A program made the translations under genes and the position numbers. This document shows, piece by piece, positions 35,004 to 44,699 of a DNA stretch of 64,000 bases. The DNA lies in the IMG/VR virus record IMGVR_UViG_3300023179_000082, positions 1 through 64,000 of that record, one strand, 5' to 3'. Positions within the stretch are counted from its first letter, which is position 1, and every line of letters begins with the position of its first letter. The notes below the pieces were generated by a model, which was given only the letters and a program-made list of their open reading frames with translations, was not told the origin of the DNA and searched no databases. The DNA comes from a virus.

Positions 35004-35133
35004 ATTTTAAAAAGTCGTATTTTTATCTATAATAGTCGTAGTAAATAATTCTCTAACTCCTGTATAAATCCAAATTTCTTGATTTTTTGTTGTAACTGTG
35101 CAACAATACAGGTATTATAACATTTGGAACCCT

Positions 35134-36009
35134 ATGACAGTCATTAAATACCTTAATAATAAGGACATACTCAAAGAAATACATTTAAGCAAGAATACCT
35201 ACTGCAGTTTTACTGAACCACAAGACCATCAATATGATTATATTATTGATTATGAAGAAGGTGTTATACTTGAAGACAGTTTAAAAATTGCGCTTAAGCC
35301 TGAAGTCATACAAAAAGCAAAAGAAAATCGTGCCTATCGTTTAGGCATAGAAAGTGGTACAAAAATTGACCCTACTACAATTGAACACAGTGACCTAGTA
35401 TTCAGAGTGATGACATGGGATCATATTCCACTAGCACCAAAACAATCACGTAAAGTTGACAAGAAGAAATCAGCACGTGAATTATTTGATTTTGAATTTG
35501 ATGATGAACCACTTTTTGATGATTTAGACGATCCAAAATTAAACAAAGAAATGGGCATGAGTGATATGAGTCATGTTCGTGTTAATTTTCCACCCTTCCA
35601 ACATTTTAAATACGCAGTAGCAGGTAATCAAATGTACTGTGTTGGTAAATCACATTGGAAAGGAGATATTTACACAGGATATTTTGACAAAGATAAAGGT
35701 CAAATTACTAATAAACTAGCTAAAATGTATCTTATGCTATGCGAAAAGTATGCCATGAGGTTTAATTGGCGTGGATATACCTACAATGATGAAATGCGTG
35801 GAGCAGCTATTTTACAATTGACTTATGTTGGTTTACGCTTTAACGAAGCTAAATCAAGTAATCCATTTGCTTACTATACCGCAGCTATTACTAATTCATT
35901 CTGTCGAGTATTGAATACAGAAAAGAAAAATCAAGGCATACGTGATGATATCCTAGAAGCTAATGGGTTAAACCCAAGTTGGTCACGTCAGTTTGCTGAA
36001 GAATCCTAA
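35134..36009 (+). CDS. gp55: Late-transcription sigma factor, gp55-like
   Basis: YLNNKDILKEI at the N-terminus and NWRGYTYNDEM...FNEAKSSNPFAYYT...EKK at the C-terminus. Directly precedes gp47-gp46 as in T4-like phages. ATG at 35134 is preferred to the GTG at 35098. Confidence 0.85.
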   Translation: MTVIKYLNNKDILKEIHLSKNTYCSFTEPQDHQYDYIIDYEEGVILEDSLKIALKPEVIQKAKENRAYRLGIESGTKIDPTTIEHSDLVFRVMTWDHIPLAPKQSRKVDKKKSARELFDFEFDDEPLFDDLDDPKLNKEMGMSDMSHVRVNFPPFQHFKYAVAGNQMYCVGKSHWKGDIYTGYFDKDKGQITNKLAKMYLMLCEKYAMRFNWRGYTYNDEMRGAAILQLTYVGLRFNEAKSSNPFAYYTAAITNSFCRVLNTEKKNQGIRDDILEANGLNPSWSRQFAEES

Positions 36010-37065: not shown

Positions 37066-39227
37066 TTATTATTAAAGAACTAACAATTAAGAACTTCTTA
37101 TCTGTTGGCAATGTAACACAAAAAATACACTTCAATCGCAGTGACCTTACTCTTATACTAGGCGAAAACCGTGATTTAGGCGGGGATGGTGCACGTAATG
37201 GCACAGGAAAATCAACGATAGTACAAGCTTTATGCTATGCATTATATGGTACTGTGCTGAATAATATCAAAAAAGATAACCTAATTAACCTAACTAATGG
37301 TAAAGGTATGCTTGTTACCGTTGATTTTGAGGTGAATGGTAGTGAATATCGTATTGAACGTGGTCGTAAACCAAATACACTTAAGTTTTTTGTTGATAAT
37401 ACTGAACAAGAATTTAGTGAAGATGAAAATGAAAGTCAAGGTGATAGTCGTGAAACACAGCTTACTATTGAGTCTGTTATTGGTATTTCTGCTGAGATGT
37501 TTAAGCATATTGTTGCCTTAAACACTTATAATGAACCATTTCTTGCACTTAAAGCAGCAGACCAACGTGAAATTATTGAACAATTACTTGGTATTACATT
37601 GCTTTCTGAAAAAGCAGAAGGTATCAAAGAACTTAATCGTAACGTAAAAGAACAAATTCAAGCAGAAGAATTTAAAATACGTGGCTTGCAAGATGCTAAT
37701 ACTAAAATTCAAGAACAAATTGATAGCCTAAAACGTAGACAAACACTATGGTTGGCTAAGAAAGATGAAGATATTACCACATATACTAATCAATTAATAG
37801 AATTGTATAAGATTGATATCGATCAAGAAATAGCATCACATCGTTCTTTGGTTACTTATAATGATAACCAAACCAAATTAACCACTGCCAAAACGCACTT
37901 AGATAGTGAAATGGCTAAACTTAGTAAACGTTATAACGATGCAGTCATTGCCTACAAACGTGAAAAAGACACAATAGTCACACAAATGAACAGTTTGAAA
38001 AATATTGATATACATATCGAAATTTCAAACTTGAAAATTATTTCTGAAATTAGAGAAAAAACAATTACACGTGACAATACTAAGAAATTATTTGATGCTA
38101 GTAACGCTACTTGCACACGCTTAAGCAAAGATATTGCTATTATTAACGCAGAATTAGTTAAATTATACGATCACAAATGCTATGCATGTGGACAAGATTA
38201 TCATGATGAAACACATAAATTTACGCTAAAGAGCAAAGAAAATCAATTAGCTGAACTACAAGCTGATTTAGCTACAGCAGAAAATCAATCGCAAGAATAT
38301 AATACAATATTAAATGGTATTGGTACGATTCCATCCATTCCTGCTGTTCATTATAAAACGTTAGAAGATGCCATCAATCATAAGTCAACAATTGATTCAT
38401 TAGCTGATAAAACCATAAAATTACAGGAAAACTTTAACAAAACCCAAAGTTTGTATGAAAATGATGTGGATGCTTTGAACAAGCAATATGATGATACTGT
38501 GCGTGAAATCGGTGAACTTGGTACAAAACCTGTTACAGTGTATAAAACATTGGAACAAGCATTAAAACATCAAAGTACGGTAGAAAAGTTAGAGCAATCG
38601 TTAGAAAGACGTGTAGAAGAAGTTGACCCATACAGTGATCAAATCAATGATATGGAGAGTAATAGTATTACTGAAATATCTTATACTATGTTAAATCAGT
38701 TAACTACTACGTTAAAGCATCAAGAATACTTGCTTGATTTGCTCACTAATAAGAAATCCTTTGTTCGTAAGAAAATTATTGAACAAAATCTAAATTATTT
38801 GAATAGTCGTTTGACATTATATTTGGATAAGATGGGTTTACCGCATCGTGTTAAGTTTCAAAATGATTTATCGGTTGAAATTACTGAACTTGGGCGTGAG
38901 TTAAGTTATGGTAATTTTAGTCGTGGTGAAAGCACAAGGTTAATATTATCCCTATCATTTGCTTTTAGGGATGTATGGGAAAATCTATATCAAGGTATTA
39001 ATTTATTGTTTGTTGATGAAATGATAGACAATGGATTAGATAGTGTTGGTGTAGAAAATGCGATTGGATTGTTTAAAGAGCTAGGCAGACGCAGAGATAA
39101 GTCAGTGTGGTTAATTTCACATCGTGACGATTTAATGAGTCGTGTTGGTAACGTGTTACATGTCATCAAAGAGGGTGGATTTACACGGTATAGTCATATG
39201 AATGAAAAAATTGCAGTAGCAGTATAG
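37062..39227 (+). CDS. gp46: Recombination ATPase subunit (Rad50/SbcC-like)
   Basis: Walker A NGTGKS, coiled coil with CYAC zinc hook, signature FSRGE, Walker B LLFVDE, D-loop GLD and H-loop ISH. Confidence 0.93.
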   Translation: MIIIKELTIKNFLSVGNVTQKIHFNRSDLTLILGENRDLGGDGARNGTGKSTIVQALCYALYGTVLNNIKKDNLINLTNGKGMLVTVDFEVNGSEYRIERGRKPNTLKFFVDNTEQEFSEDENESQGDSRETQLTIESVIGISAEMFKHIVALNTYNEPFLALKAADQREIIEQLLGITLLSEKAEGIKELNRNVKEQIQAEEFKIRGLQDANTKIQEQIDSLKRRQTLWLAKKDEDITTYTNQLIELYKIDIDQEIASHRSLVTYNDNQTKLTTAKTHLDSEMAKLSKRYNDAVIAYKREKDTIVTQMNSLKNIDIHIEISNLKIISEIREKTITRDNTKKLFDASNATCTRLSKDIAIINAELVKLYDHKCYACGQDYHDETHKFTLKSKENQLAELQADLATAENQSQEYNTILNGIGTIPSIPAVHYKTLEDAINHKSTIDSLADKTIKLQENFNKTQSLYENDVDALNKQYDDTVREIGELGTKPVTVYKTLEQALKHQSTVEKLEQSLERRVEEVDPYSDQINDMESNSITEISYTMLNQLTTTLKHQEYLLDLLTNKKSFVRKKIIEQNLNYLNSRLTLYLDKMGLPHRVKFQNDLSVEITELGRELSYGNFSRGESTRLILSLSFAFRDVWENLYQGINLLFVDEMIDNGLDSVGVENAIGLFKELGRRRDKSVWLISHRDDLMSRVGNVLHVIKEGGFTRYSHMNEKIAVAV

Positions 39228-39243
39228 TGTAATAAGTATCGAT

Positions 39244-39753
39244 ATGCCATCAGCAAGTAAAATTAAGGGTAGTACATTTGAGCGAGAAATAGCCAAATAT
39301 CTATCAGATTTGTATAAAGAATCCTTTATACGTGTCCCCAATAGTGGCGCATTTATTGGTGGTATAAACACAAGTCGCAAAGAATTTTTGCATGAAGGTC
39401 AGGTAAGAAGCTTCAAAGGTGATATCATCCCAGGCGAATCTTTCAAACTCCTCAACATTGAATGTAAAAACTATGGTGATTTTTCCTTTCATCAATTACT
39501 AACTAGTTGCAAAGTATTAGATAATTGGTTAGACCAATTGATGGAAGTAAGTGATGAGCATGATTTAAATGTACTTTTTATGAAATTCAATCGTAAAGGT
39601 CGTTATATTGCTGTACAATGGCATCATCAGTGGGAATTAATCAATTACAGTGTTTACAAAAACAATACCCATGGTATATGGGTTATATCAGAATTAGAAC
39701 ATTTTTTTAAATTAAACTCAGGTCGTTTTAAACTTTTATCTCAACATACTTAG
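39244..39753 (+). CDS. Holliday junction resolvase-like PD-(D/E)xK nuclease (Hjc family)
   Basis: SKIKGSTFEREIA...R...SGA...GDII...IECK is the Hjc pattern; follows gp46. Confidence 0.75.
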   Translation: MPSASKIKGSTFEREIAKYLSDLYKESFIRVPNSGAFIGGINTSRKEFLHEGQVRSFKGDIIPGESFKLLNIECKNYGDFSFHQLLTSCKVLDNWLDQLMEVSDEHDLNVLFMKFNRKGRYIAVQWHHQWELINYSVYKNNTHGIWVISELEHFFKLNSGRFKLLSQHT

Positions 39754-39797
39754 GTCTCCTTAGGTCTAACATCTTACTTTTACTCCAATTTAGGTCT
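39750..39797 (+). repeat. Three direct copies of TTAGGTCT
   Basis: Copies start at 39750, 39760 and 39790 (10- and 30-bp spacing). Confidence 0.7.
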
Positions 39798-39811
39798 TTA
39801 TTATAGAACAA

Positions 39812-40372
39812 TAGGTTTGGTTGCATGACCTGTAACGCAACGTAGGTACACTAATTAAAGTTGGTTAATGCCTTGGCTGAGTTCTACAGCAGCTTCAATA
39901 GACTATCCCCAAGACCCATGTGGTTGTAAGGACGCTATAAACGGATGCCCATTGGTAGTCACGTTTCTATTGTCGTAATAGTTGAATCTACTGTAAAGTA
40001 GGTTAGGGTAAAAAGTATTTTTTATCAAGTGCTCGATCATAATAATAGTGGAAAAGGGTCGAGACTGTGTTAATAGCTAACTCACTGAGGTTATTAACGT
40101 TACAGTGTATGCGGTGTGTTTCTTGTACAAACAAGTTTTGGGGTGATATAGTCAAACCTACCTGAATAAAATGCACGAAGTGAGCACCTTCTACGAGAGT
40201 GGGCGGGGAAGAAGAACCAAATGTGTGGATTATTGCAACTGTAAAAAGTTACATTTATCCACCTTTTTGCAAAAAAGATAAACGGAAAAATAATAATAAA
40301 AAAAAATATGAGTGTACGTGGCTGAAGCGATAGCGTAAGCTTAGTACACGAATAGATGACCTTTGGTCATCT
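39812..40372 (+). ncRNA. Putative large structured non-coding RNA (family not recognised)
   Basis: ORF-free and more GC-rich than its flanks. More than 12 hand-checked stems, including long-range 39812-39826/40146-40160 and 39907-39915/40135-40143. Many G-U pairs valid only on the + strand; GUAA and GAGA tetraloops. Confidence 0.65.
40354..40372. terminator. Perfect hairpin AGATGACC-TTT-GGTCATCT at a convergent transcription boundary
   Basis: 8-bp perfect stem abutting the stop codon of the minus-strand gp51-like gene. Confidence 0.55.
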
Positions 40373-40599
40373 TAAAAGAATGGTAATCCACTTTTCTTAG
40401 TAACTTCTAGATTTTCATCAATTAACTTGTTAATAATATTAGTTTCAGTTGGTGAAAGATTCATAGCATCAACATATGATAATGAACCACGCATATACCA
40501 TGCTGCTTTTAAAGCATTGCGTTTAATAATAGTAACTTCTTCTTCGTATCCTTTTACTAGCTTCTCTATATCATCTTGTGATAGATAGAGAAGCCTCAT
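40372..40599 (-). CDS. gp51: Baseplate hub assembly chaperone, gp51-like (possibly made as a -1 frameshift extension of gp26)
   Basis: 75 aa with WYMRGSLSYVDAMNLSPTE, similar to small tail-chaperone/gp51 domains. ATGA overlap with the upstream gene; no SD. Confidence 0.55.
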   Translation of the reverse strand: MRLLYLSQDDIEKLVKGYEEEVTIIKRNALKAAWYMRGSLSYVDAMNLSPTETNIINKLIDENLEVTKKSGLPFF

Positions 40600-41486: not shown

Positions 41487-44400
41487 ATGGCAGACCAACT
41501 TGATCCTGAATTAATGCGTCAGCTCAATGATAAATTCACTGAGTTATCAAATTCTATTACTACGATTGGCACTATTTCAGCCAAATCAATGAAATCAGTG
41601 GAGGACAATACTCAAAAAGTTGACAAAAATACATCATCTACTGAAGATAATACTAAAGCAACGGATGAAAATACTAGTTCAATCAAGCGTAATACTACTG
41701 CAGTAAACAGTCAGTTAAAGACTACGGAAAAAAATACTCAAGCATCTTCTGATCAAACTGATGTTATTAAAGAAGCTAATAATGCTATAAAAAATCAAGC
41801 ACAAGCGGTTGGTGCTAGTAAAAAAACATTTGATGATTTAACAAAAGCCACTAATCAGCAATTTAAATCATATATGGCAACTGAGGTTGCAAAAGAGCAA
41901 ATAAGTGGTGCATCAGCAAAAGCTCAGCAAGAATTAAATTCTAGACTAAAACTATCAAGCATTGGAATGGAAGTATTCCAAACAGGCGTAGAGGGTGTTA
42001 AGAAAGTTTTTGATGCTGCGATTGATGCGCAAATGAACTATACTAAAGCTTTGTTGCAGGGTACACGTGGTTTAGGTTTGGAAGCGCAGCGTAGAGAAAC
42101 TGAAGGCAAAGCTGTAAACCAAGTTATACGTGATTTTGGCAACTTAAGTATGTCGATTGGTGGATTGATGGTGGCGTTAGGACCGTTTGGTATAATTGGT
42201 CGTATTGTAGGTTTGGTTGGAGTAGGTGTTGGTATTTTGGCACAGTATGAAGCAAAAGCACGAGATTTTGCTTTGGAAGTGGCTACTATTACTGAACAGT
42301 TAAAAGATAAACTGTTTGATACTTTCAAAGATTTAAGTAATTCTGCTTTAACTACTGCAGGAGGTATGACCACATTACGTGCTCAAATGAAGAAGTTTGA
42401 TTTTGCTATGGCTGAAGTTGGTCAATTTGCAGCCGTAATAAAAGGTGCGGGTAAAGAGTTATCACAAATTGGTGGTTCTACAGTTAAAGGTTTAGAAAAC
42501 TTTGTTGAAACTGCTGCAGATTTGTTTGAAAGTCAACTTGGTAAAGAGTTGCAATACATGGGCTTGGATCGTGAAGAACAAATGAAAGGAACATTAAAGT
42601 TCTTAAGTTTACAAGCTAGATTAGGTGTTCAACAAGAAAAAGACATTAAAAAGTTATCACAATCAGCAGGAAAATACATATCAGAATTAGACCAATTAGC
42701 TACGCTAACAGGTATAACACGTCAAGAACAAGAACAAGCACGTGAACAAGTTATGGCAATTGAGGAATTACGTGCTGCTTTAGTGGAAGAAACTGCAAAA
42801 GGTGCTGCTGCAGATAAAGGTCGCTTAAAAGTATTAGAAGATGCCATACAAGTATCTACTGTATTAACTGCAGAAGGCATGAAAGAAGCAGGTGCTTCAT
42901 TAGCTAGAACAGTTGCTGCAGGTGGTGTAACAAGGGCTGAAGATGCTAAATTATTACAAACTGCACCACAATTTTTACAGAATATGATGCAAGGTGTGGG
43001 TAGTGTAACCGACAATTTACAATTATTTGGTAAAGAATCTAAACAAACATTGACACAATTGTCAAGCGCAGTAAAAGTATCAGGTGATATTGGTAAGGAA
43101 ATAGCAGCAGTTGACTACGCAAAATTATTTGATTTCATACCAAAAATAGATAAGATTGCAGAATTACAAAAACAATTCCCTGAGAAAACATTACCACAAA
43201 TCGTAGATGAAATGCGTAAGGTAACCGATCCCGCTACTAAAGCAGTACAAGATTTAATAAATGCTCAAAGAAAAGACGCAATTGCAAAAGAAGAATCAGG
43301 TGGAGGAATAAAAGGGGCAGCGGATTTACTAAAGTCAGGTGCACAAATATTTGGTATAAATGTTGAAAATTTTGGAAAATATGTACGTCAATTATTAGGA
43401 ATAAAAGACACTGCTAAGGTAGAAAAAACTGAAGCAACTAAAAAAGCAGAAGCTAAAGTAGAAGAAAAGAAAAAAATTACTGATATAGCCACTGAAAAAG
43501 CAACTGCTGCATCCATGGCTGAGGATCAAGCTAAGAAAGAATTAGCCGAACTATATAAAAAGGGTGACGTTGCAGGTGTCGAAGCTAAAAAAGTTGAAAT
43601 ACAAAAATTAACTGACGAGCGTATGAAAGCTGAACAAGAAATGATGGTTGCTTCACGTGATCAATCACAAGCTGCTTTAGAAGCTTCAAACCAACGTAAA
43701 AAAGATATACGAGAAGTAAACCAACTTGATGATAAAATAAGATTTTATAAAGATTCAATTAATCTTAACAATATGAAAATTGATTCATTATCAAAAGACC
43801 AAGTTGAATTAAATATAGAACTTAAAAAATCAACGGGATTTGCTAAATTAGAAAATGAAAATCGATTAAAACATCTTACTCGATTAAGAGAATTAGCAGA
43901 AAAAGAAGTAAAAGAAGCAGAAGAAAATATCAAAAAAAGTGAAGAACGTAAAAAAGAACTAGAAAAGAAAACGTCTACCGCTACCCCAACCCCTGCAGCA
44001 TCTTCACAAGAACGTAAAGAATTTGTGGACAAAATGTATGCAACATTACTTGAGCAAGCTAAAAAACAAGGTGTTGCAAATCCTGAAGTTGTTGCTAGAT
44101 TAGGTGTTGCTCAATCTGCTTTAGAAACAGGGTATGGTAAATCCACTGCAGGTGGTCAAAATTATTTTGGTATTAAAGCAGGTAAAGGTCAGCCTAGTGT
44201 CACTGCGGAAACTGAAGAATTTGATGCAGCCAAAGGTGTAATGGTCAAACAACAAGCTGCGTTTAAAAAATATAGTAGCATGGAAGAATCTGCTGCTGAT
44301 TATATTAAATTCTTAAAAGAAAATCAGCGATATAAGGAAGTATTAGCAGCAAAAACACTTGACGAGGCTATTCTAGCACAAAGTATGTCAGGTTATGCTA

Positions 44401-44699
44401 CTGATCCACGTTATGGACAAAAATTAGCAACTATTAACCAAAATATCGCACAAGAGCCAGGAAAAATGTTCGATGGTGGCGTAGTAACTAAACCGTTAAC
44501 AACCACATTACGTGATGGTGGACAAGATGAAGCAGTTATTCCATTGAATAAGTTAGCAGATTTAATACCTATAAAGTCATTAGTTGATGCTATAGAACGT
44601 CAAACAGCAATGTTAACCCAAGGTTTTGAGAACATGACTGACAAATTAGCTGAAAATAATAGCATGGTAAGTGACCAATTATTGTACATGCAGAACTAA
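41487..44699 (+). CDS. Tape measure-like protein with C-terminal GH73 (FlgJ/glucosaminidase) domain
   Basis: Long A/K/Q/E helical body and a hydrophobic segment (GGLMVALGPFGIIGRIVGLVGVGVGIL). Then AQSALETGYG...NYFGIKA...GYATDPRY (GH73 signature) and a terminal GG...EAVIPL motif. Confidence 0.75.
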   Translation: MADQLDPELMRQLNDKFTELSNSITTIGTISAKSMKSVEDNTQKVDKNTSSTEDNTKATDENTSSIKRNTTAVNSQLKTTEKNTQASSDQTDVIKEANNAIKNQAQAVGASKKTFDDLTKATNQQFKSYMATEVAKEQISGASAKAQQELNSRLKLSSIGMEVFQTGVEGVKKVFDAAIDAQMNYTKALLQGTRGLGLEAQRRETEGKAVNQVIRDFGNLSMSIGGLMVALGPFGIIGRIVGLVGVGVGILAQYEAKARDFALEVATITEQLKDKLFDTFKDLSNSALTTAGGMTTLRAQMKKFDFAMAEVGQFAAVIKGAGKELSQIGGSTVKGLENFVETAADLFESQLGKELQYMGLDREEQMKGTLKFLSLQARLGVQQEKDIKKLSQSAGKYISELDQLATLTGITRQEQEQAREQVMAIEELRAALVEETAKGAAADKGRLKVLEDAIQVSTVLTAEGMKEAGASLARTVAAGGVTRAEDAKLLQTAPQFLQNMMQGVGSVTDNLQLFGKESKQTLTQLSSAVKVSGDIGKEIAAVDYAKLFDFIPKIDKIAELQKQFPEKTLPQIVDEMRKVTDPATKAVQDLINAQRKDAIAKEESGGGIKGAADLLKSGAQIFGINVENFGKYVRQLLGIKDTAKVEKTEATKKAEAKVEEKKKITDIATEKATAASMAEDQAKKELAELYKKGDVAGVEAKKVEIQKLTDERMKAEQEMMVASRDQSQAALEASNQRKKDIREVNQLDDKIRFYKDSINLNNMKIDSLSKDQVELNIELKKSTGFAKLENENRLKHLTRLRELAEKEVKEAEENIKKSEERKKELEKKTSTATPTPAASSQERKEFVDKMYATLLEQAKKQGVANPEVVARLGVAQSALETGYGKSTAGGQNYFGIKAGKGQPSVTAETEEFDAAKGVMVKQQAAFKKYSSMEESAADYIKFLKENQRYKEVLAAKTLDEAILAQSMSGYATDPRYGQKLATINQNIAQEPGKMFDGGVVTKPLTTTLRDGGQDEAVIPLNKLADLIPIKSLVDAIERQTAMLTQGFENMTDKLAENNSMVSDQLLYMQN

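What the first reader, a model, noticed from the sequence alone, without database searches (positions are those of the whole stretch)
39812..40372. Candidate ~560-nt highly structured ncRNA directly downstream of the gp47-gp46-Hjc nuclease operon
SEEN: this is the only large ORF-free gap in 64 kb, and nearly all of it can be paired by hand. An outer stem 39812-39826/40146-40160 (14 of 15 pairs, 3 G-U) closes a ~350-nt domain. Inside it, 39907-39915/40135-40143 (CCCCAAGAC/GTTTTGGGG) closes a multiway junction carrying 39918-39927/39955-39964 (10 bp, 5 G-U), CTATT/AATAG (39967-39981), AATCTACT-GTAA-AGTAGGTT (39985-40004, GNRA loop), 40007-40026, CTCGATC/GGTCGAG (40032-40063), 40064-40106 and TGTTT/AAACA (40117-40133). 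The 3' part has a GAGA-loop hairpin (~40190-40203), a long GTGGAT...ATCCAC hairpin (40225-40262), CTTTTT-GCA-AAAAAG (40263-40277), GTGTAC...GTACAC (40312-40349) and a terminal perfect hairpin. The wobble pairs are G-U on + and would be A-C on -, which points to a + strand molecule co-oriented with the resolvase. I see no tRNA, tmRNA, RNase P or group I/II hallmarks. INFERENCE: an unrecognised large phage RNA of similar size to OLE/ROOL/GOLLD. It could form an RNP with the adjacent Hjc-like nuclease or gp46/47, or act as a folded replication pre-primer (ColE1 RNA II-like; note the GGGCGGGG tract at 40201-40208 followed by A-rich DNA).
Basis: partly seen in the sequence, partly recalled or inferred. 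Interest (0 to 1): 0.88.

Follow-up and report, generated by a model that had tools for sequence, protein, structure and literature searches.

The report
New large knotted giant-phage RNA
The only long gene-free gap in this uncultured giant lake phage encodes a real, intricately folded non-coding RNA of about 470 bases; it matches no catalogued RNA family, is an enlarged relative of an RNA that related phages keep at a different place in the genome, and has no known job.

Summary
Confirmed, with corrections. Window 39754-40371 is by far the largest ORF-free gap (618 nt; the next is 239).

About 39804-40270 on the + strand is a structured RNA gene.
- In five distinct copies, 97% of 478 pair cells are standard pairs.
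- 22 of 96 pairs keep pairing through changes on both sides (shuffles 9.4±2.2; slid controls 0-3).
- G·U to A·C cells are 58:3, which fixes the strand.
- There is no conserved ORF, and a conserved hairpin plus U-tract ends the RNA near 40270.
- Single-sequence folding energy is not better than shuffles (z -0.85), so the case rests on comparison between copies.
His two long-range closing stems and three local hairpins do not.

There was no Rfam match, no tRNA or tmRNA, and no paper found.

New here: a covariance model of the 3' half and a sequence profile both tie this RNA to a roughly 380-nt RNA that lies between the mazG and neck genes of related phages. The helices and two pseudoknots occupy the same positions, and here there are extra hairpins. 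One complete 364-kb genome carries that RNA as well as the unrelated 'type B' RNA behind its nuclease gene.

This scan had already noted all three RNAs on other DNA, but as separate classes. Function is unknown. The pre-primer and nuclease-partner ideas gain no support.

The parts
39750..39797 (+). Three exact TTAGGTCT repeats (39750-57, 39760-67, 39790-97). The first overlaps the nuclease stop codon. Role unknown.
   Evidence: These are the only three copies in 64 kb, all within 48 nt. Every relative has 2-4 CTNAGGTCT copies in the same place while the spacers differ. The proximal copy could pair with ACCUGAAU at 40160-40167. That pairing covaries between the window and L003, but it competes with the lower part of H13.
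39804..40270 (+). Structured non-coding RNA gene ('type A'), about 470 nt. The 5' end is not mapped: it lies at or upstream of 39804.
   Evidence: Alignment A3 of 5 distinct copies. 97.3% of cells are paired. 22 of 96 pairs change on both sides, against 9.4±2.2 in shuffles and 0-3 in slid controls. G·U to A·C is 58:3. No conserved ORF.
39804..39809 (+). 5' leader UAGAAC, proposed pseudoknot PK2 with the H3 loop GUUCUA (39881-39886)
   Evidence: Both 6-mers are invariant and complementary in all 5 copies. The same leader-to-loop pairing, at the same position in the mazG-neck homologues, covaries: UUGGUC/GACCAA against UUGACU/GGUCAA.
39812..39819 (+). UAGGUUUG, tentative long-range pairing P1 with CAAACCUA (40153-40160) in the H13 loop
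Evidence: 82.5% of cells are paired. Three copies break two of the eight pairs, and there are no compensatory changes.
39820..39841 (+). H1 hairpin GUUGC/GCAAC with an invariant 12-nt loop AUGACCUGUAAC
   Evidence: Invariant in all 5 copies, so there is no covariation evidence. The homologous hairpin in mazG-neck RNAs has an ACCU-containing loop.
39844..39873 (+). H2 bulged hairpin (39844-48/39869-73 and 39850-55/39860-65)
   Evidence: 100% paired, with one-sided U·G to C-G changes only.
39875..39891 (+). H3 hairpin. Its 7-nt loop carries GUUCUA, the 3' strand of PK2.
   Evidence: G-C to A-U compensatory change at one pair.
39896..39972 (+). Three-way junction. H4 (39896-39902/39966-39972) encloses a variable hairpin (39907-39935, longer in the window and L005) and H6 (39940-45/39959-65).
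   Evidence: Compensatory changes in H4 and H6. This is the part most similar in sequence to mazG-neck RNAs (nhmmer E 3e-9 to 5e-6).
39985..40024 (+). H7 (GUAA/GAGA tetraloop hairpin 39985-40004) and H8 (40009-40024). Both are insertions relative to the mazG-neck RNA.
   Evidence: H7 has three pairs with both-side changes. The profile alignment leaves a gap of about 42 nt exactly here. H8 was read by eye in the alignment.
40032..40063 (+). H9 hairpin with a conserved 18-nt A-rich loop
   Evidence: All 7 pairs change on both sides across 16 distinct sequences of both subfamilies, and 99% of cells are paired.
40064..40106 (+). H10 long hairpin. Its loop CUCACU (40081-40086) forms pseudoknot PK1 with AGUGAG (40179-40184).
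   Evidence: 12 of the 15 H10 pairs covary. PK1 shows C-G to U-A within type A. In mazG-neck RNAs the same two positions hold YGAUGAAU/AUUCAUCR instead, with C-G to U-A in 13 of 13.
40114..40176 (+). H11 (40114-21/40169-76) encloses H12 (40122-26/40131-35) and H13 (GGGU 40141-44 with ACCU 40160-63). H13 closes the invariant 15-nt loop GAUAUAGUCAAACCU.
   Evidence: H11 and H12 covary. The H13 stem does not vary in type A, but its counterpart in mazG-neck RNAs has four covarying versions around the loop AGACAUAGACAAUCCU (read by eye).
40190..40203 (+). H14 hairpin with a GNRA-type loop (GAGA; GCAA in L005)
   Evidence: 100% paired, with one both-side change.
40225..40270 (+). Probable intrinsic terminator: a long hairpin (40225-40262) followed by CUUUUUGC
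   Evidence: A hairpin plus U-tract is present in all 5 copies, with different stem letters. The consensus scan misses it because the loop is longer than 8 nt. The 3' end has not been mapped.
40273..40372 (.). A-rich spacer, hairpin 40312-40349 and terminal hairpin 40354-40372. These are boundary elements, not part of the RNA core.
   Evidence: The terminal hairpin and the following bases are the only part of the gap shared with type B loci (nhmmer E 1e-7 to 4e-13). The hairpin abuts the stop codon of the convergent 75-aa ORF.
39244..39753 (+). PDDEXK_15 nuclease gene (annotated 'Holliday junction resolvase' in some records), last gene of the gp55-like/gp47/gp46/nuclease operon
   Evidence: Pfam PF24608, E 7e-25. 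PHROG RusA-like resolvase; gp55-like late sigma factor at 35098-36009.

Best explanation
Window ~39804-40270 (+) is a gene for a stable, compactly folded, pseudoknotted non-coding RNA of about 470 nt.

What is shown:
- It folds into at least 15 helices and at least two pseudoknots that evolution preserves.
- It reads on the + strand.
- It codes for no protein.
- It carries its own hairpin plus U-tract at the 3' end.
- It is homologous to the roughly 380-nt RNA that related giant lake phages keep between their mazG and neck genes. The three-way junction H4/H6, helices H9 to H13, and the two pseudoknots PK1 and PK2 are all shared. This copy carries extra hairpins H7 and H8 and an enlarged 5' part.
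- It lies in the place where most related phages keep an unrelated large RNA ('type B').

What is inferred:
- It is made as the 3' end of the gp55-like/gp47/gp46/nuclease transcript, or from a promoter inside that unit. The reason is that the conserved 5' leader begins about 50 nt after the nuclease stop codon and no convincing promoter lies in between.
- It is then stopped, and protected at its 3' end, by the terminator hairpin.
- It acts in trans as a folded particle, either as an RNA-protein scaffold or decoy or as an RNA-only assembly, during the early or middle phase of infection. I give this last step about 40%. The partner and the biological role are unknown.
For: Structure in five distinct copies:
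- 97.3% of 478 cells form standard pairs.
- 22 pairs and 33 cells change on both sides. Shuffles give 9.4±2.2 pairs and 11.1±2.8 cells, with 0 of 500 reaching the observed values. Slid controls give 0-3.
- RNAalifold on its own finds 24 of 118 pairs with compensatory change.

Strand and coding:
- G·U to A·C is 58:3.
- There is no conserved ORF and no codon periodicity.
- A hairpin plus U-tract is conserved, with differing stem letters.

Homology to the mazG-neck RNA:
- Model R2, built from 40027-40186, hits a complete 364-kb genome at a different locus (36 bits, E 1.8e-8).
- R2 also hits 16 of 80 loci fetched with the neck-like protein, always just upstream of that gene (E 3.5e-10 to 1.5e-5).
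- On the joint alignment, 31 of 35 pairs change on both sides (shuffles 17.6±2.0; slid controls 5-10) and 94.4% of cells are paired.
- A sequence profile of 13 such RNAs finds all five type A copies (E 3e-9 to 5e-6).
- PK1 and PK2 sit at the same positions in both groups with quite different letters.

Not a known family: no Rfam match in the window, in the region at E<=10, or in 12 related loci, no tRNA or tmRNA, and no paper found.

The slot is shared with another RNA: 55 distinct related loci hold a different conserved RNA there. Its model R1 finds nothing in type A loci or records, and R2 finds nothing in type B loci.
Against: - Folding energy of the single sequence is no better than shuffled controls (z -0.85 on +, -0.99 on -).
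- Only five distinct full-length type A copies could be reached, and they are related, so several compensatory changes may be one event each.
- The alignment used was fitted to the model's structure, which favours that structure.
- No RNA run holds the stretch, so transcription, the ends and stability are all unmeasured.
- P1, H13 and PK2 rest on invariant letters within type A.
- The trans-acting role is an argument from complexity and from analogy, not from data.
Confidence: 0.85

Rival explanations
1. Cis-acting 3' untranslated element. The fold serves only the upstream operon. It would stabilise the gp55/gp47/gp46/nuclease mRNA against 3' exonucleases, or insulate two converging transcription units, and would have no role of its own in trans.
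For: It lies at the end of a co-oriented operon and faces converging genes. The conserved leader starts about 50 nt after the stop codon, and the AGGUCU repeats reach into the stop codon. No convincing promoter lies in between.
Against: Fifteen or more helices, two or more pseudoknots and long invariant loops are far more than a stabiliser or terminator needs. The homologous RNA at the mazG-neck locus is followed by a co-oriented gene, not a converging one. Cultured relatives end the same nuclease gene with no such element.
Confidence: 0.15
2. Ribozyme. The conserved junctions form a catalytic core, for instance one that cuts the RNA out of its precursor or acts on another RNA.
For: Junction and loop sequences stay nearly invariant between two subfamilies that otherwise share little sequence: GAUGCU-UAAACG, ACGUUUCC...UAAUAGUUG and AUAG-CAA-CCU. 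The 5' end must be produced somehow if the RNA is read through from the operon.
Against: No match to any ribozyme family in Rfam, even at E<=10. It is not an intron: no downstream exon exists and the nuclease ORF is complete. Invariant cores are equally typical of protein-binding or RNA-assembling RNAs.
Confidence: 0.1
3. Partner or guide RNA of the adjacent PDDEXK nuclease (or of gp46/gp47), forming one RNA-protein machine.
For: Among the 80 closest uncultured relatives, each of the 79 loci with enough downstream DNA has a gap of 470 nt or more directly behind this nuclease gene, filled with one of two conserved RNAs.
Against: Gene and RNA do not travel together. The window's nuclease and gp46 are closest to L003 (87-92% identity), while its RNA and the genes beyond are closest to L005 (89-92%), so a recombination joint lies between them. 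Homologous RNAs lie at the mazG-neck locus with no nuclease gene in the 1.5 kb on each side. Two unrelated folds occupy the slot. Cultured phages with the same nuclease family have no RNA there.
Confidence: 0.07
4. Folded replication pre-primer or origin transcript, like ColE1 RNA II or the R-loop origins of T4.
For: Direct repeats lie upstream and an A-rich stretch lies downstream. From general knowledge, T4 has a repeat-bearing origin near its baseplate genes, and ColE1 RNA II must fold to prime replication.
Against: The GGGCGGGG tract cited for R-loop formation is not conserved in the relatives. The RNA ends in a conserved hairpin plus U-tract before the A-rich DNA. The homologous RNA at the other locus has neither the repeats nor the A-rich stretch. 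Cumulative GC skew was not examined.
Confidence: 0.05
5. Not a functional RNA. The stems found by hand are what any AU-rich 600-nt stretch gives, and the conservation reflects recent common descent.
For: Folding energy is not better than shuffles. Only five close copies of type A exist.
Against: Compensatory changes far exceed both the shuffled and the slid controls. The same helices are kept in RNAs at another locus that share only about 36 bits with the model. G·U to A·C is 58:3.
Confidence: 0.03

Closest known systems
'mazG-neck' RNA of uncultured giant lake phages
   Same: Homologous. Shared parts are the three-way junction H4/H6 with its junction sequences, H9, H10, H11/H12, H13 with its AUAG-CAA-CCU loop, pseudoknot PK1 (H10 loop to 3' tail) and pseudoknot PK2 (5' leader to the loop of the hairpin before H4).
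   Different: This copy sits behind the nuclease gene, not between mazG and the neck gene. It has extra hairpins H7 and H8 (about 42 nt), a different and larger 5' part (H2), different letters in both pseudoknots, its own terminator, and upstream TTAGGTCT repeats. The closing helix of the mazG-neck RNA (5' AUAGGU with a 3'-terminal GCCUAAG) has no visible counterpart here.
'Type B' resolvase-slot RNA of giant lake phages
   Same: It occupies exactly the same place, directly behind the orthologous nuclease gene and before the same converging baseplate genes. It is on the same strand, is large, and covaries.
   Different: No detectable relation. nhmmer finds only the shared boundary hairpin. Model R1 of its central domain scores at most 8.6 bits in type A loci. 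R2 scores at most 9.9 bits in type B loci. One complete genome has type B together with a mazG-neck RNA.
GOLLD (RF01998) and ROOL (RF03087), large 'ornate' RNAs often carried by phages and prophages; cryo-EM shows RNA-only multimers (10.1101/2024.12.08.627333)
   Same: Similar size class, many helices and pseudoknots, carried by phages, function unknown. GOLLD was also first seen in lake metagenomes.
   Different: No match to either covariance model, even at E<=10. No tRNA genes lie next to it. Whether it forms multimers is untested.
ColE1 RNA II / T4 origin transcripts
   Same: A folded transcript next to direct repeats and A-rich DNA.
   Different: The G-tract is not conserved, a terminator precedes the A-rich DNA, and homologues elsewhere lack these flanks.

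Membership tests
mazG-neck RNA family of giant lake phages (uncatalogued) | 3' domain: H9, H10, and H11 enclosing H12, with the conserved internal loop | tested here: met
   R2, built from type A only, finds these RNAs at E 1.8e-8 to 3.5e-10. On the joint alignment 31 of 35 pairs covary.
mazG-neck RNA family of giant lake phages (uncatalogued) | Three-way junction H4/H6 with the junction sequences GAUGCU-UAAACG and ACGUUUCC...UAAUAGUUG | tested here: met
   A profile of 13 mazG-neck RNAs aligns this region in all 5 type A copies, E 3e-9 to 5e-6.
mazG-neck RNA family of giant lake phages (uncatalogued) | Pseudoknot between the H10 loop and the tail just 3' of H11 | tested here: met
   Type A has CUCACU/AGUGAG with a C-G to U-A change. 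mazG-neck RNAs have YGAUGAAU/AUUCAUCR with C-G to U-A in 13 of 13, at the same positions.
mazG-neck RNA family of giant lake phages (uncatalogued) | Pseudoknot between the 5' leader and the loop of the hairpin just before H4 | tested here: inconclusive
   In mazG-neck RNAs it covaries (UUGGUC/GACCAA against UUGACU/GGUCAA). In type A the two 6-mers UAGAAC and GUUCUA are complementary but invariant.
mazG-neck RNA family of giant lake phages (uncatalogued) | Position between the mazG and neck genes | tested here: not met
   Here it lies between the nuclease gene and a converging 75-aa ORF plus a gp51-like gene. I therefore file it as a relocated or duplicated variant.
Type B resolvase-slot RNA | Match to a covariance model of its central multi-helix domain | tested here: not met
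   R1 gives a best E of 1.4, and that hit is in coding DNA. There is no hit in four type A records, while the positive control gives 1.6e-36.
GOLLD, ROOL, OLE, HEARO, raiA and all other Rfam 15 families | Covariance-model score at or above the gathering threshold | tested here: not met
   0 matches in the whole window. At E<=10 there are only three chance-level hits of 15-16 bits. 0 matches in 12 related loci.
Group I / group II intron | Interrupts a gene, with exons on both sides; matches the intron models | tested here: not met
   The nuclease ORF is complete, no downstream frame continues it, and Rfam has no match.
tRNA / tmRNA | ARAGORN detection | tested here: not met
   0 genes in the window.
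ColE1 RNA II-like pre-primer | Conserved G-rich segment that forms a persistent hybrid with the template at the origin | tested here: not met
   GGGCGGGG is present only in the window. L005, L003, L002 and L086 differ there. R-loop formation itself cannot be tested with these tools.
Intrinsic (Rho-independent) terminator at the RNA's 3' end | Stable hairpin directly followed by a U-tract on the transcribed strand | tested here: met
   40225-40262 plus CUUUUUGC is present in all five copies with different stem letters. The consensus scan does not list it because its loop limit is 8 nt.

The most novel reading that the evidence does not exclude
Giant lake phages carry a small set of large, unrelated, self-folding RNAs as movable cassettes at the borders between early and late gene blocks. 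Here a member of one RNA family has moved or been copied from the mazG-neck border into the nuclease slot and displaced the type B RNA. That would mean two unrelated folds can serve the same place, and perhaps the same essential, still unknown step of infection, such as an RNA-only assembly or a catalytic RNA.
Probability: 0.25. Interest if true: 0.88.

Novelty: categorically new. Interest (0 to 1): 0.78.

Why it matters
Large RNAs with conserved, knotted folds are rare, and nearly every class whose role was later worked out turned out to be a ribozyme, a guide or part of a molecular machine.

This one is absent from Rfam and from the papers I could search. It belongs to a family found in many uncultured giant phages of lakes, rivers and estuaries. 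DNA holders of the stretch turned up in 12 sequencing studies, four of which I laid. The family now has two homes in the genome.

Three observations give concrete handles for experiments. The same family occurs at two loci. An unrelated RNA fills the same slot in sister phages. One complete genome holds both RNAs. From these one can compare what the two contexts share, ask whether the two RNA types can replace each other, and use the compact 380-nt form to guide structural work on the 470-nt form.

The finding also merges two entries that this scan had been counting as separate new RNA classes.

Tried and rejected
More copies of type A:
- Four pattern scans of viral contigs, one of metagenome contigs and one of genome contigs returned only the known five copies plus chance hits in coding DNA (L083, L085, L089, L090-L102, L114-L123).

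Expression:
- No RNA holder was listed for the stretch.
- The four runs I laid are DNA contigs. They showed variants like the known relatives and no new information on ends.

Folding energy gave no support on either strand.

Type A against type B:
- nhmmer in both directions and both covariance models found nothing significant.
- A 38-nt resemblance around ...ACGAAGUGAG (E 0.57) proved to be a self-contained tail hairpin in type B, with no covarying partner.
- A 14-of-17 match around GUCA-ACCU-C-UGAGU is within chance.

Other ideas:
- Intron: rejected.
- Small protein: rejected.
- Promoter: sigma-70-like matches are no more frequent than in shuffles (12 against 9.4±3.2). A T-T-Y-A-T hexamer 5 nt before AAUAGGU recurs in both subfamilies, but it would start transcription downstream of the leader that PK2 needs, so I do not call it a promoter.
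- T4-type late promoter: TATAAATA does not occur near the RNA.

Context:
- Cultured relatives (Salicola SCTP-2, Sinorhizobium Phosso) have no RNA behind the nuclease gene and no similarity to either profile.
- Whether type A phages also keep a mazG-neck copy could not be told. The neck-like gene is absent from the four type A record fragments, which are 12-45% complete.

No paper describing this RNA was found.
Full report
**Setting.**
The window is the first 64 kb of a 74-kb IMG/VR record that CheckV rates 21% complete. The phage is therefore probably around 350 kb.

On the + strand lie a gp55-like late sigma factor (35098-36009), a gp47-like phosphoesterase, a gp46-like ATPase and a 169-aa PDDEXK_15 nuclease (39244-39753). 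A 75-aa ORF and a gp51-like baseplate gene converge from the right.

The stretch between them, 39754-40371, is the largest ORF-free gap in the window: 618 nt, against 239 nt for the next largest.

Folding energy does not support it.
- For the whole gap, z is -2.2 on + and -2.0 on -, with only 20 shuffles.
- For 39804-40272, z is -0.85 on + and -0.99 on -, with 150 dinucleotide shuffles. It is about 0 without the terminator.

So 'nearly all of it can be paired by hand' is what an AU-rich stretch of this length gives by chance. The case has to come from comparison between copies, and it does.

**Relatives of the same RNA ('type A').**
The nuclease protein fetched 80 loci. Only L002, L003 and L004=L005 have a gap that resembles the window's (72-86% identity). 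A pattern scan added L086.

Further scans of viral, metagenome and genome contigs gave only duplicates and chance hits. That leaves five distinct copies.

On their alignment (A3), RNAalifold finds 24 of 118 pairs with compensatory change.

I refined the structure by hand to 96 pairs in 15 helices, two of them crossing the others. On that structure:
- 97.3% of cells form standard pairs.
- 22 pairs and 33 cells change on both sides. Shuffles give 9.4±2.2 pairs and 11.1±2.8 cells, and 0 of 500 shuffles reach the observed values.
- Sliding the 3' partners by 1-3 columns leaves 0-3 such pairs.

G·U outnumbers A·C by 58 to 3, so the molecule is read from the + strand. No reading frame is conserved, and substitutions fall evenly on the three codon phases.

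**Anatomy in window coordinates**.

| Element | Coordinates | Note |
|---|---|---|
| Leader | 39804-09 (UAGAAC) | complementary to the H3 loop GUUCUA (39881-86); this is PK2 |
| P1 | 39812-19 with 40153-60 | tentative |
| H1 | 39820-41 | invariant 12-nt loop |
| H2 | 39844-73 | |
| H3 | 39875-91 | |
| H4 | 39896-902 with 39966-72 | three-way junction; encloses a variable hairpin and H6 |
| H6 | 39940-45 with 39959-65 | |
| H7 | 39985-40004 | GNRA loop |
| H8 | 40009-24 | |
| H9 | 40032-63 | |
| H10 | 40064-106 | its loop CUCACU (40081-86) pairs with AGUGAG (40179-84); this is PK1 |
| H11 | 40114-21 with 40169-76 | encloses H12 and H13 |
| H12 | 40122-35 | |
| H13 | 40141-44 with 40160-63 | closes the invariant loop GAUAUAGUCAAACCU |
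| H14 | 40190-203 | |
| Terminator | 40225-62, then CUUUUUGC | long hairpin plus U-tract |

The terminator-like hairpin recurs in all five copies with different stem letters. I therefore place the 3' end near 40270.

The remaining 100 nt consist of an A-rich spacer and two hairpins. They include the only part of the gap that is also conserved in phages with a different RNA, so I treat them as the gene boundary.

The following do not:
- CTATT/AATAG.
- TGTTT/AAACA.
- 39918-27 with 39955-64.
- CCCCAAGAC/GTTTTGGGG.
- CTTTTT/AAAAAG.
- Most of the outer stem.

**The slot.**
After the nuclease gene, each of the 79 loci with enough downstream DNA has a gap of 470-850 nt. In 55 distinct loci the gap holds a different conserved element, 'type B'. 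These resemble each other but not the window. They show obvious covariation.

A covariance model of the type B central domain (R1, 48 sequences) gives these results:
- It scores at most 8.6 bits in type A loci, and those hits lie in coding DNA.
- It finds nothing in four type A records.
- It finds its own kind at E 1.6e-36.

So two unrelated RNAs occupy one slot.

The window is also a mosaic:
- Its gp46 and nuclease genes are closest to L003 (92% and 87% identity).
- Its RNA, the 75-aa ORF and the gp51-like gene are closest to L005 (89%, 92% and 83%).

A recombination joint therefore lies between the nuclease gene and the RNA, where the TTAGGTCT repeats are.

**A wider family.**
I built model R2 from the 3' half of type A alone (40027-40186). 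It found nothing in type B loci.

It did hit G005, a complete 364-kb genome with terminal repeats. Its nuclease slot holds type B, yet the R2 hit lies at a quite different place: 81809-81957, 36 bits, E 1.8e-8.

The hit lies in a 400-nt ORF-free gap. Upstream are genes resembling thymidylate kinase and mazG, plus two small ORFs. Downstream is a co-oriented neck/adaptor-like gene.

The adaptor-like protein fetched 80 further loci. R2 hits 16 of them at the same spot, with E from 3.5e-10 to 1.5e-5.

Evidence that these are homologues:
- On the model-guided joint alignment of 16 distinct sequences, 31 of 35 pairs change on both sides (shuffles 17.6±2.0; slid controls 5-10) and 94.4% of cells pair. 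That alignment leans towards the model's structure.
- A plain sequence profile of 13 of these RNAs independently finds all five type A copies (E 3e-9 to 5e-6). It aligns H4/H6 through H10 and leaves a gap of about 42 nt exactly where type A has H7 and H8.
- PK1 sits at the same two positions but with different letters (YGAUGAAU/AUUCAUCR). Its closing pair switches between C-G and U-A in 13 of 13 sequences.
- The leader-to-loop pairing PK2 covaries in this group: UUGGUC/GACCAA against UUGACU/GGUCAA.
- The H13 stem has four covarying versions around a nearly invariant loop (read by eye).

Type A is thus an enlarged member of this family, placed at another locus.

**What earlier notes of this scan say.**
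They describe type A on another genome (e1-5743851), type B many times (e.g. e1-5690309, e1-5791559) and the mazG-neck RNA (e1-5927637, e1-5872129, e1-5872122). Each was treated as a separate new class.

I reached the type A to mazG-neck link from my own model before reading those notes. As far as the notes show, the link is new.

**What it is not.**
- No Rfam 15 family matches the window, the region at E<=10, or related loci.
- It is not a tRNA or tmRNA.
- It is not an intron. The nuclease ORF is complete and nothing downstream continues it. The longer type B nucleases merely carry a Ser/Thr-rich tail.
- No paper describing it was found.
- The cultured phages with the nearest nucleases (Salicola SCTP-2, Sinorhizobium Phosso, the PA5oct group; at most 45% identity) have no gap behind the gene.

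**How it probably works.**
Shown: a conserved, knotted fold on the + strand with its own terminator-like 3' end; homologues at a second locus; an unrelated RNA in the same slot elsewhere.

Inferred:
- The RNA is probably read as the tail of the gp55/gp47/gp46/nuclease transcript, or from a promoter inside it. The conserved leader begins about 50 nt after the stop codon. Promoter-like matches are no more frequent than in shuffles, and TATAAATA is absent there.
- Both homes of the family lie at the end of a block of replication or nucleotide-metabolism genes, next to virion genes. This suggests expression before or around the switch to late transcription.
- The degree of conservation in loops and junctions points to a molecule that works as a folded particle, binding proteins or other copies of itself. 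I give that about 40%.

Rivals:
- A purely cis-acting 3' element: about 15%.
- A ribozyme: about 10%.
- The nuclease-partner idea is weakened by the recombination joint and by homologues with no nuclease gene in the flanks fetched.
- The pre-primer idea is weakened by the unconserved G-tract and by the terminator that precedes the A-rich DNA.

**Limits.**
- Only five type A copies were reachable, and they are related to one another.
- Several elements (H1, H13, P1, PK2) do not vary within type A. They rest on homology or on complementarity alone.
- There are no RNA data.
- The type A records are fragments, so I cannot say whether the RNA moved to the slot or was copied there.

Noticed in passing
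window 39227-39800 compared with L003 and L005: Mosaic ancestry. gp46 and the nuclease are closest to L003 (92% and 87%). The RNA, the 75-aa ORF and the gp51-like gene are closest to L005 (89%, 92% and 83%). The joint falls at the TTAGGTCT repeat cluster, which might act as a recombination site.
   Followed up: partly
L128:1337-1732 (G005:C1, about 81.6-82.0 kb) and 16 loci among L129-L208: A compact homologue of the window's RNA (about 380 nt) lies between mazG-like and neck/adaptor-like genes. In a complete 364-kb genome it coexists with the type B RNA behind the nuclease gene. Of the 62 distinct upstream stretches from these 80 loci, 49 fall into other sequence clusters of 39, 5, 4 and 1, which I did not examine.
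   Followed up: partly
type B loci, e.g. L035:4600-4625; mazG-neck RNAs, e.g. L128:1611-1631; window 40148-40165: The most conserved block of each of the three RNAs contains a pyrimidine-rich CCU motif: CCUCCUUGA in type B, CAAUCCUCC in mazG-neck and CAAACCUACCUGA here. The first two contain CCUCC, the core of the 16S rRNA anti-Shine-Dalgarno sequence. This may be chance. In mazG-neck RNAs part of the motif lies in a stem.
   Followed up: no
L125:1987-3000 (Sinorhizobium phage Phosso, PV764938.1, about 229759-230772): About 1 kb with no annotated gene lies directly upstream of this cultured jumbo phage's resolvase gene. About 590 nt of it has no ORF of 50 aa or more. It has no tRNA, no Rfam match and no similarity to the type A or B profiles.
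   Followed up: partly
window, whole: The T4 late-promoter octamer TATAAATA occurs only 5 times, against 13.6±3.1 expected. At least one copy (44702) lies directly behind the stop of an ORF (41487-44699), in an intergenic position. This fits its use as a real late promoter that is avoided elsewhere.
   Followed up: no
nuclease C-termini, window 39244-39753 compared with L006-L081: Nucleases of phages with the type B RNA carry an extra Ser/Thr-rich tail of 15-20 residues. The type A phages lack it.
   Followed up: no
window 40354-40374: The terminal hairpin AGAUGACC-UUU-GGUCAUCU overlaps the stop codon of the converging 75-aa ORF by one base. Its 5' arm repeats AUGACC from the invariant H1 loop. 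Neither strand has a U-tract after it, so it is not a standard terminator.
   Followed up: no
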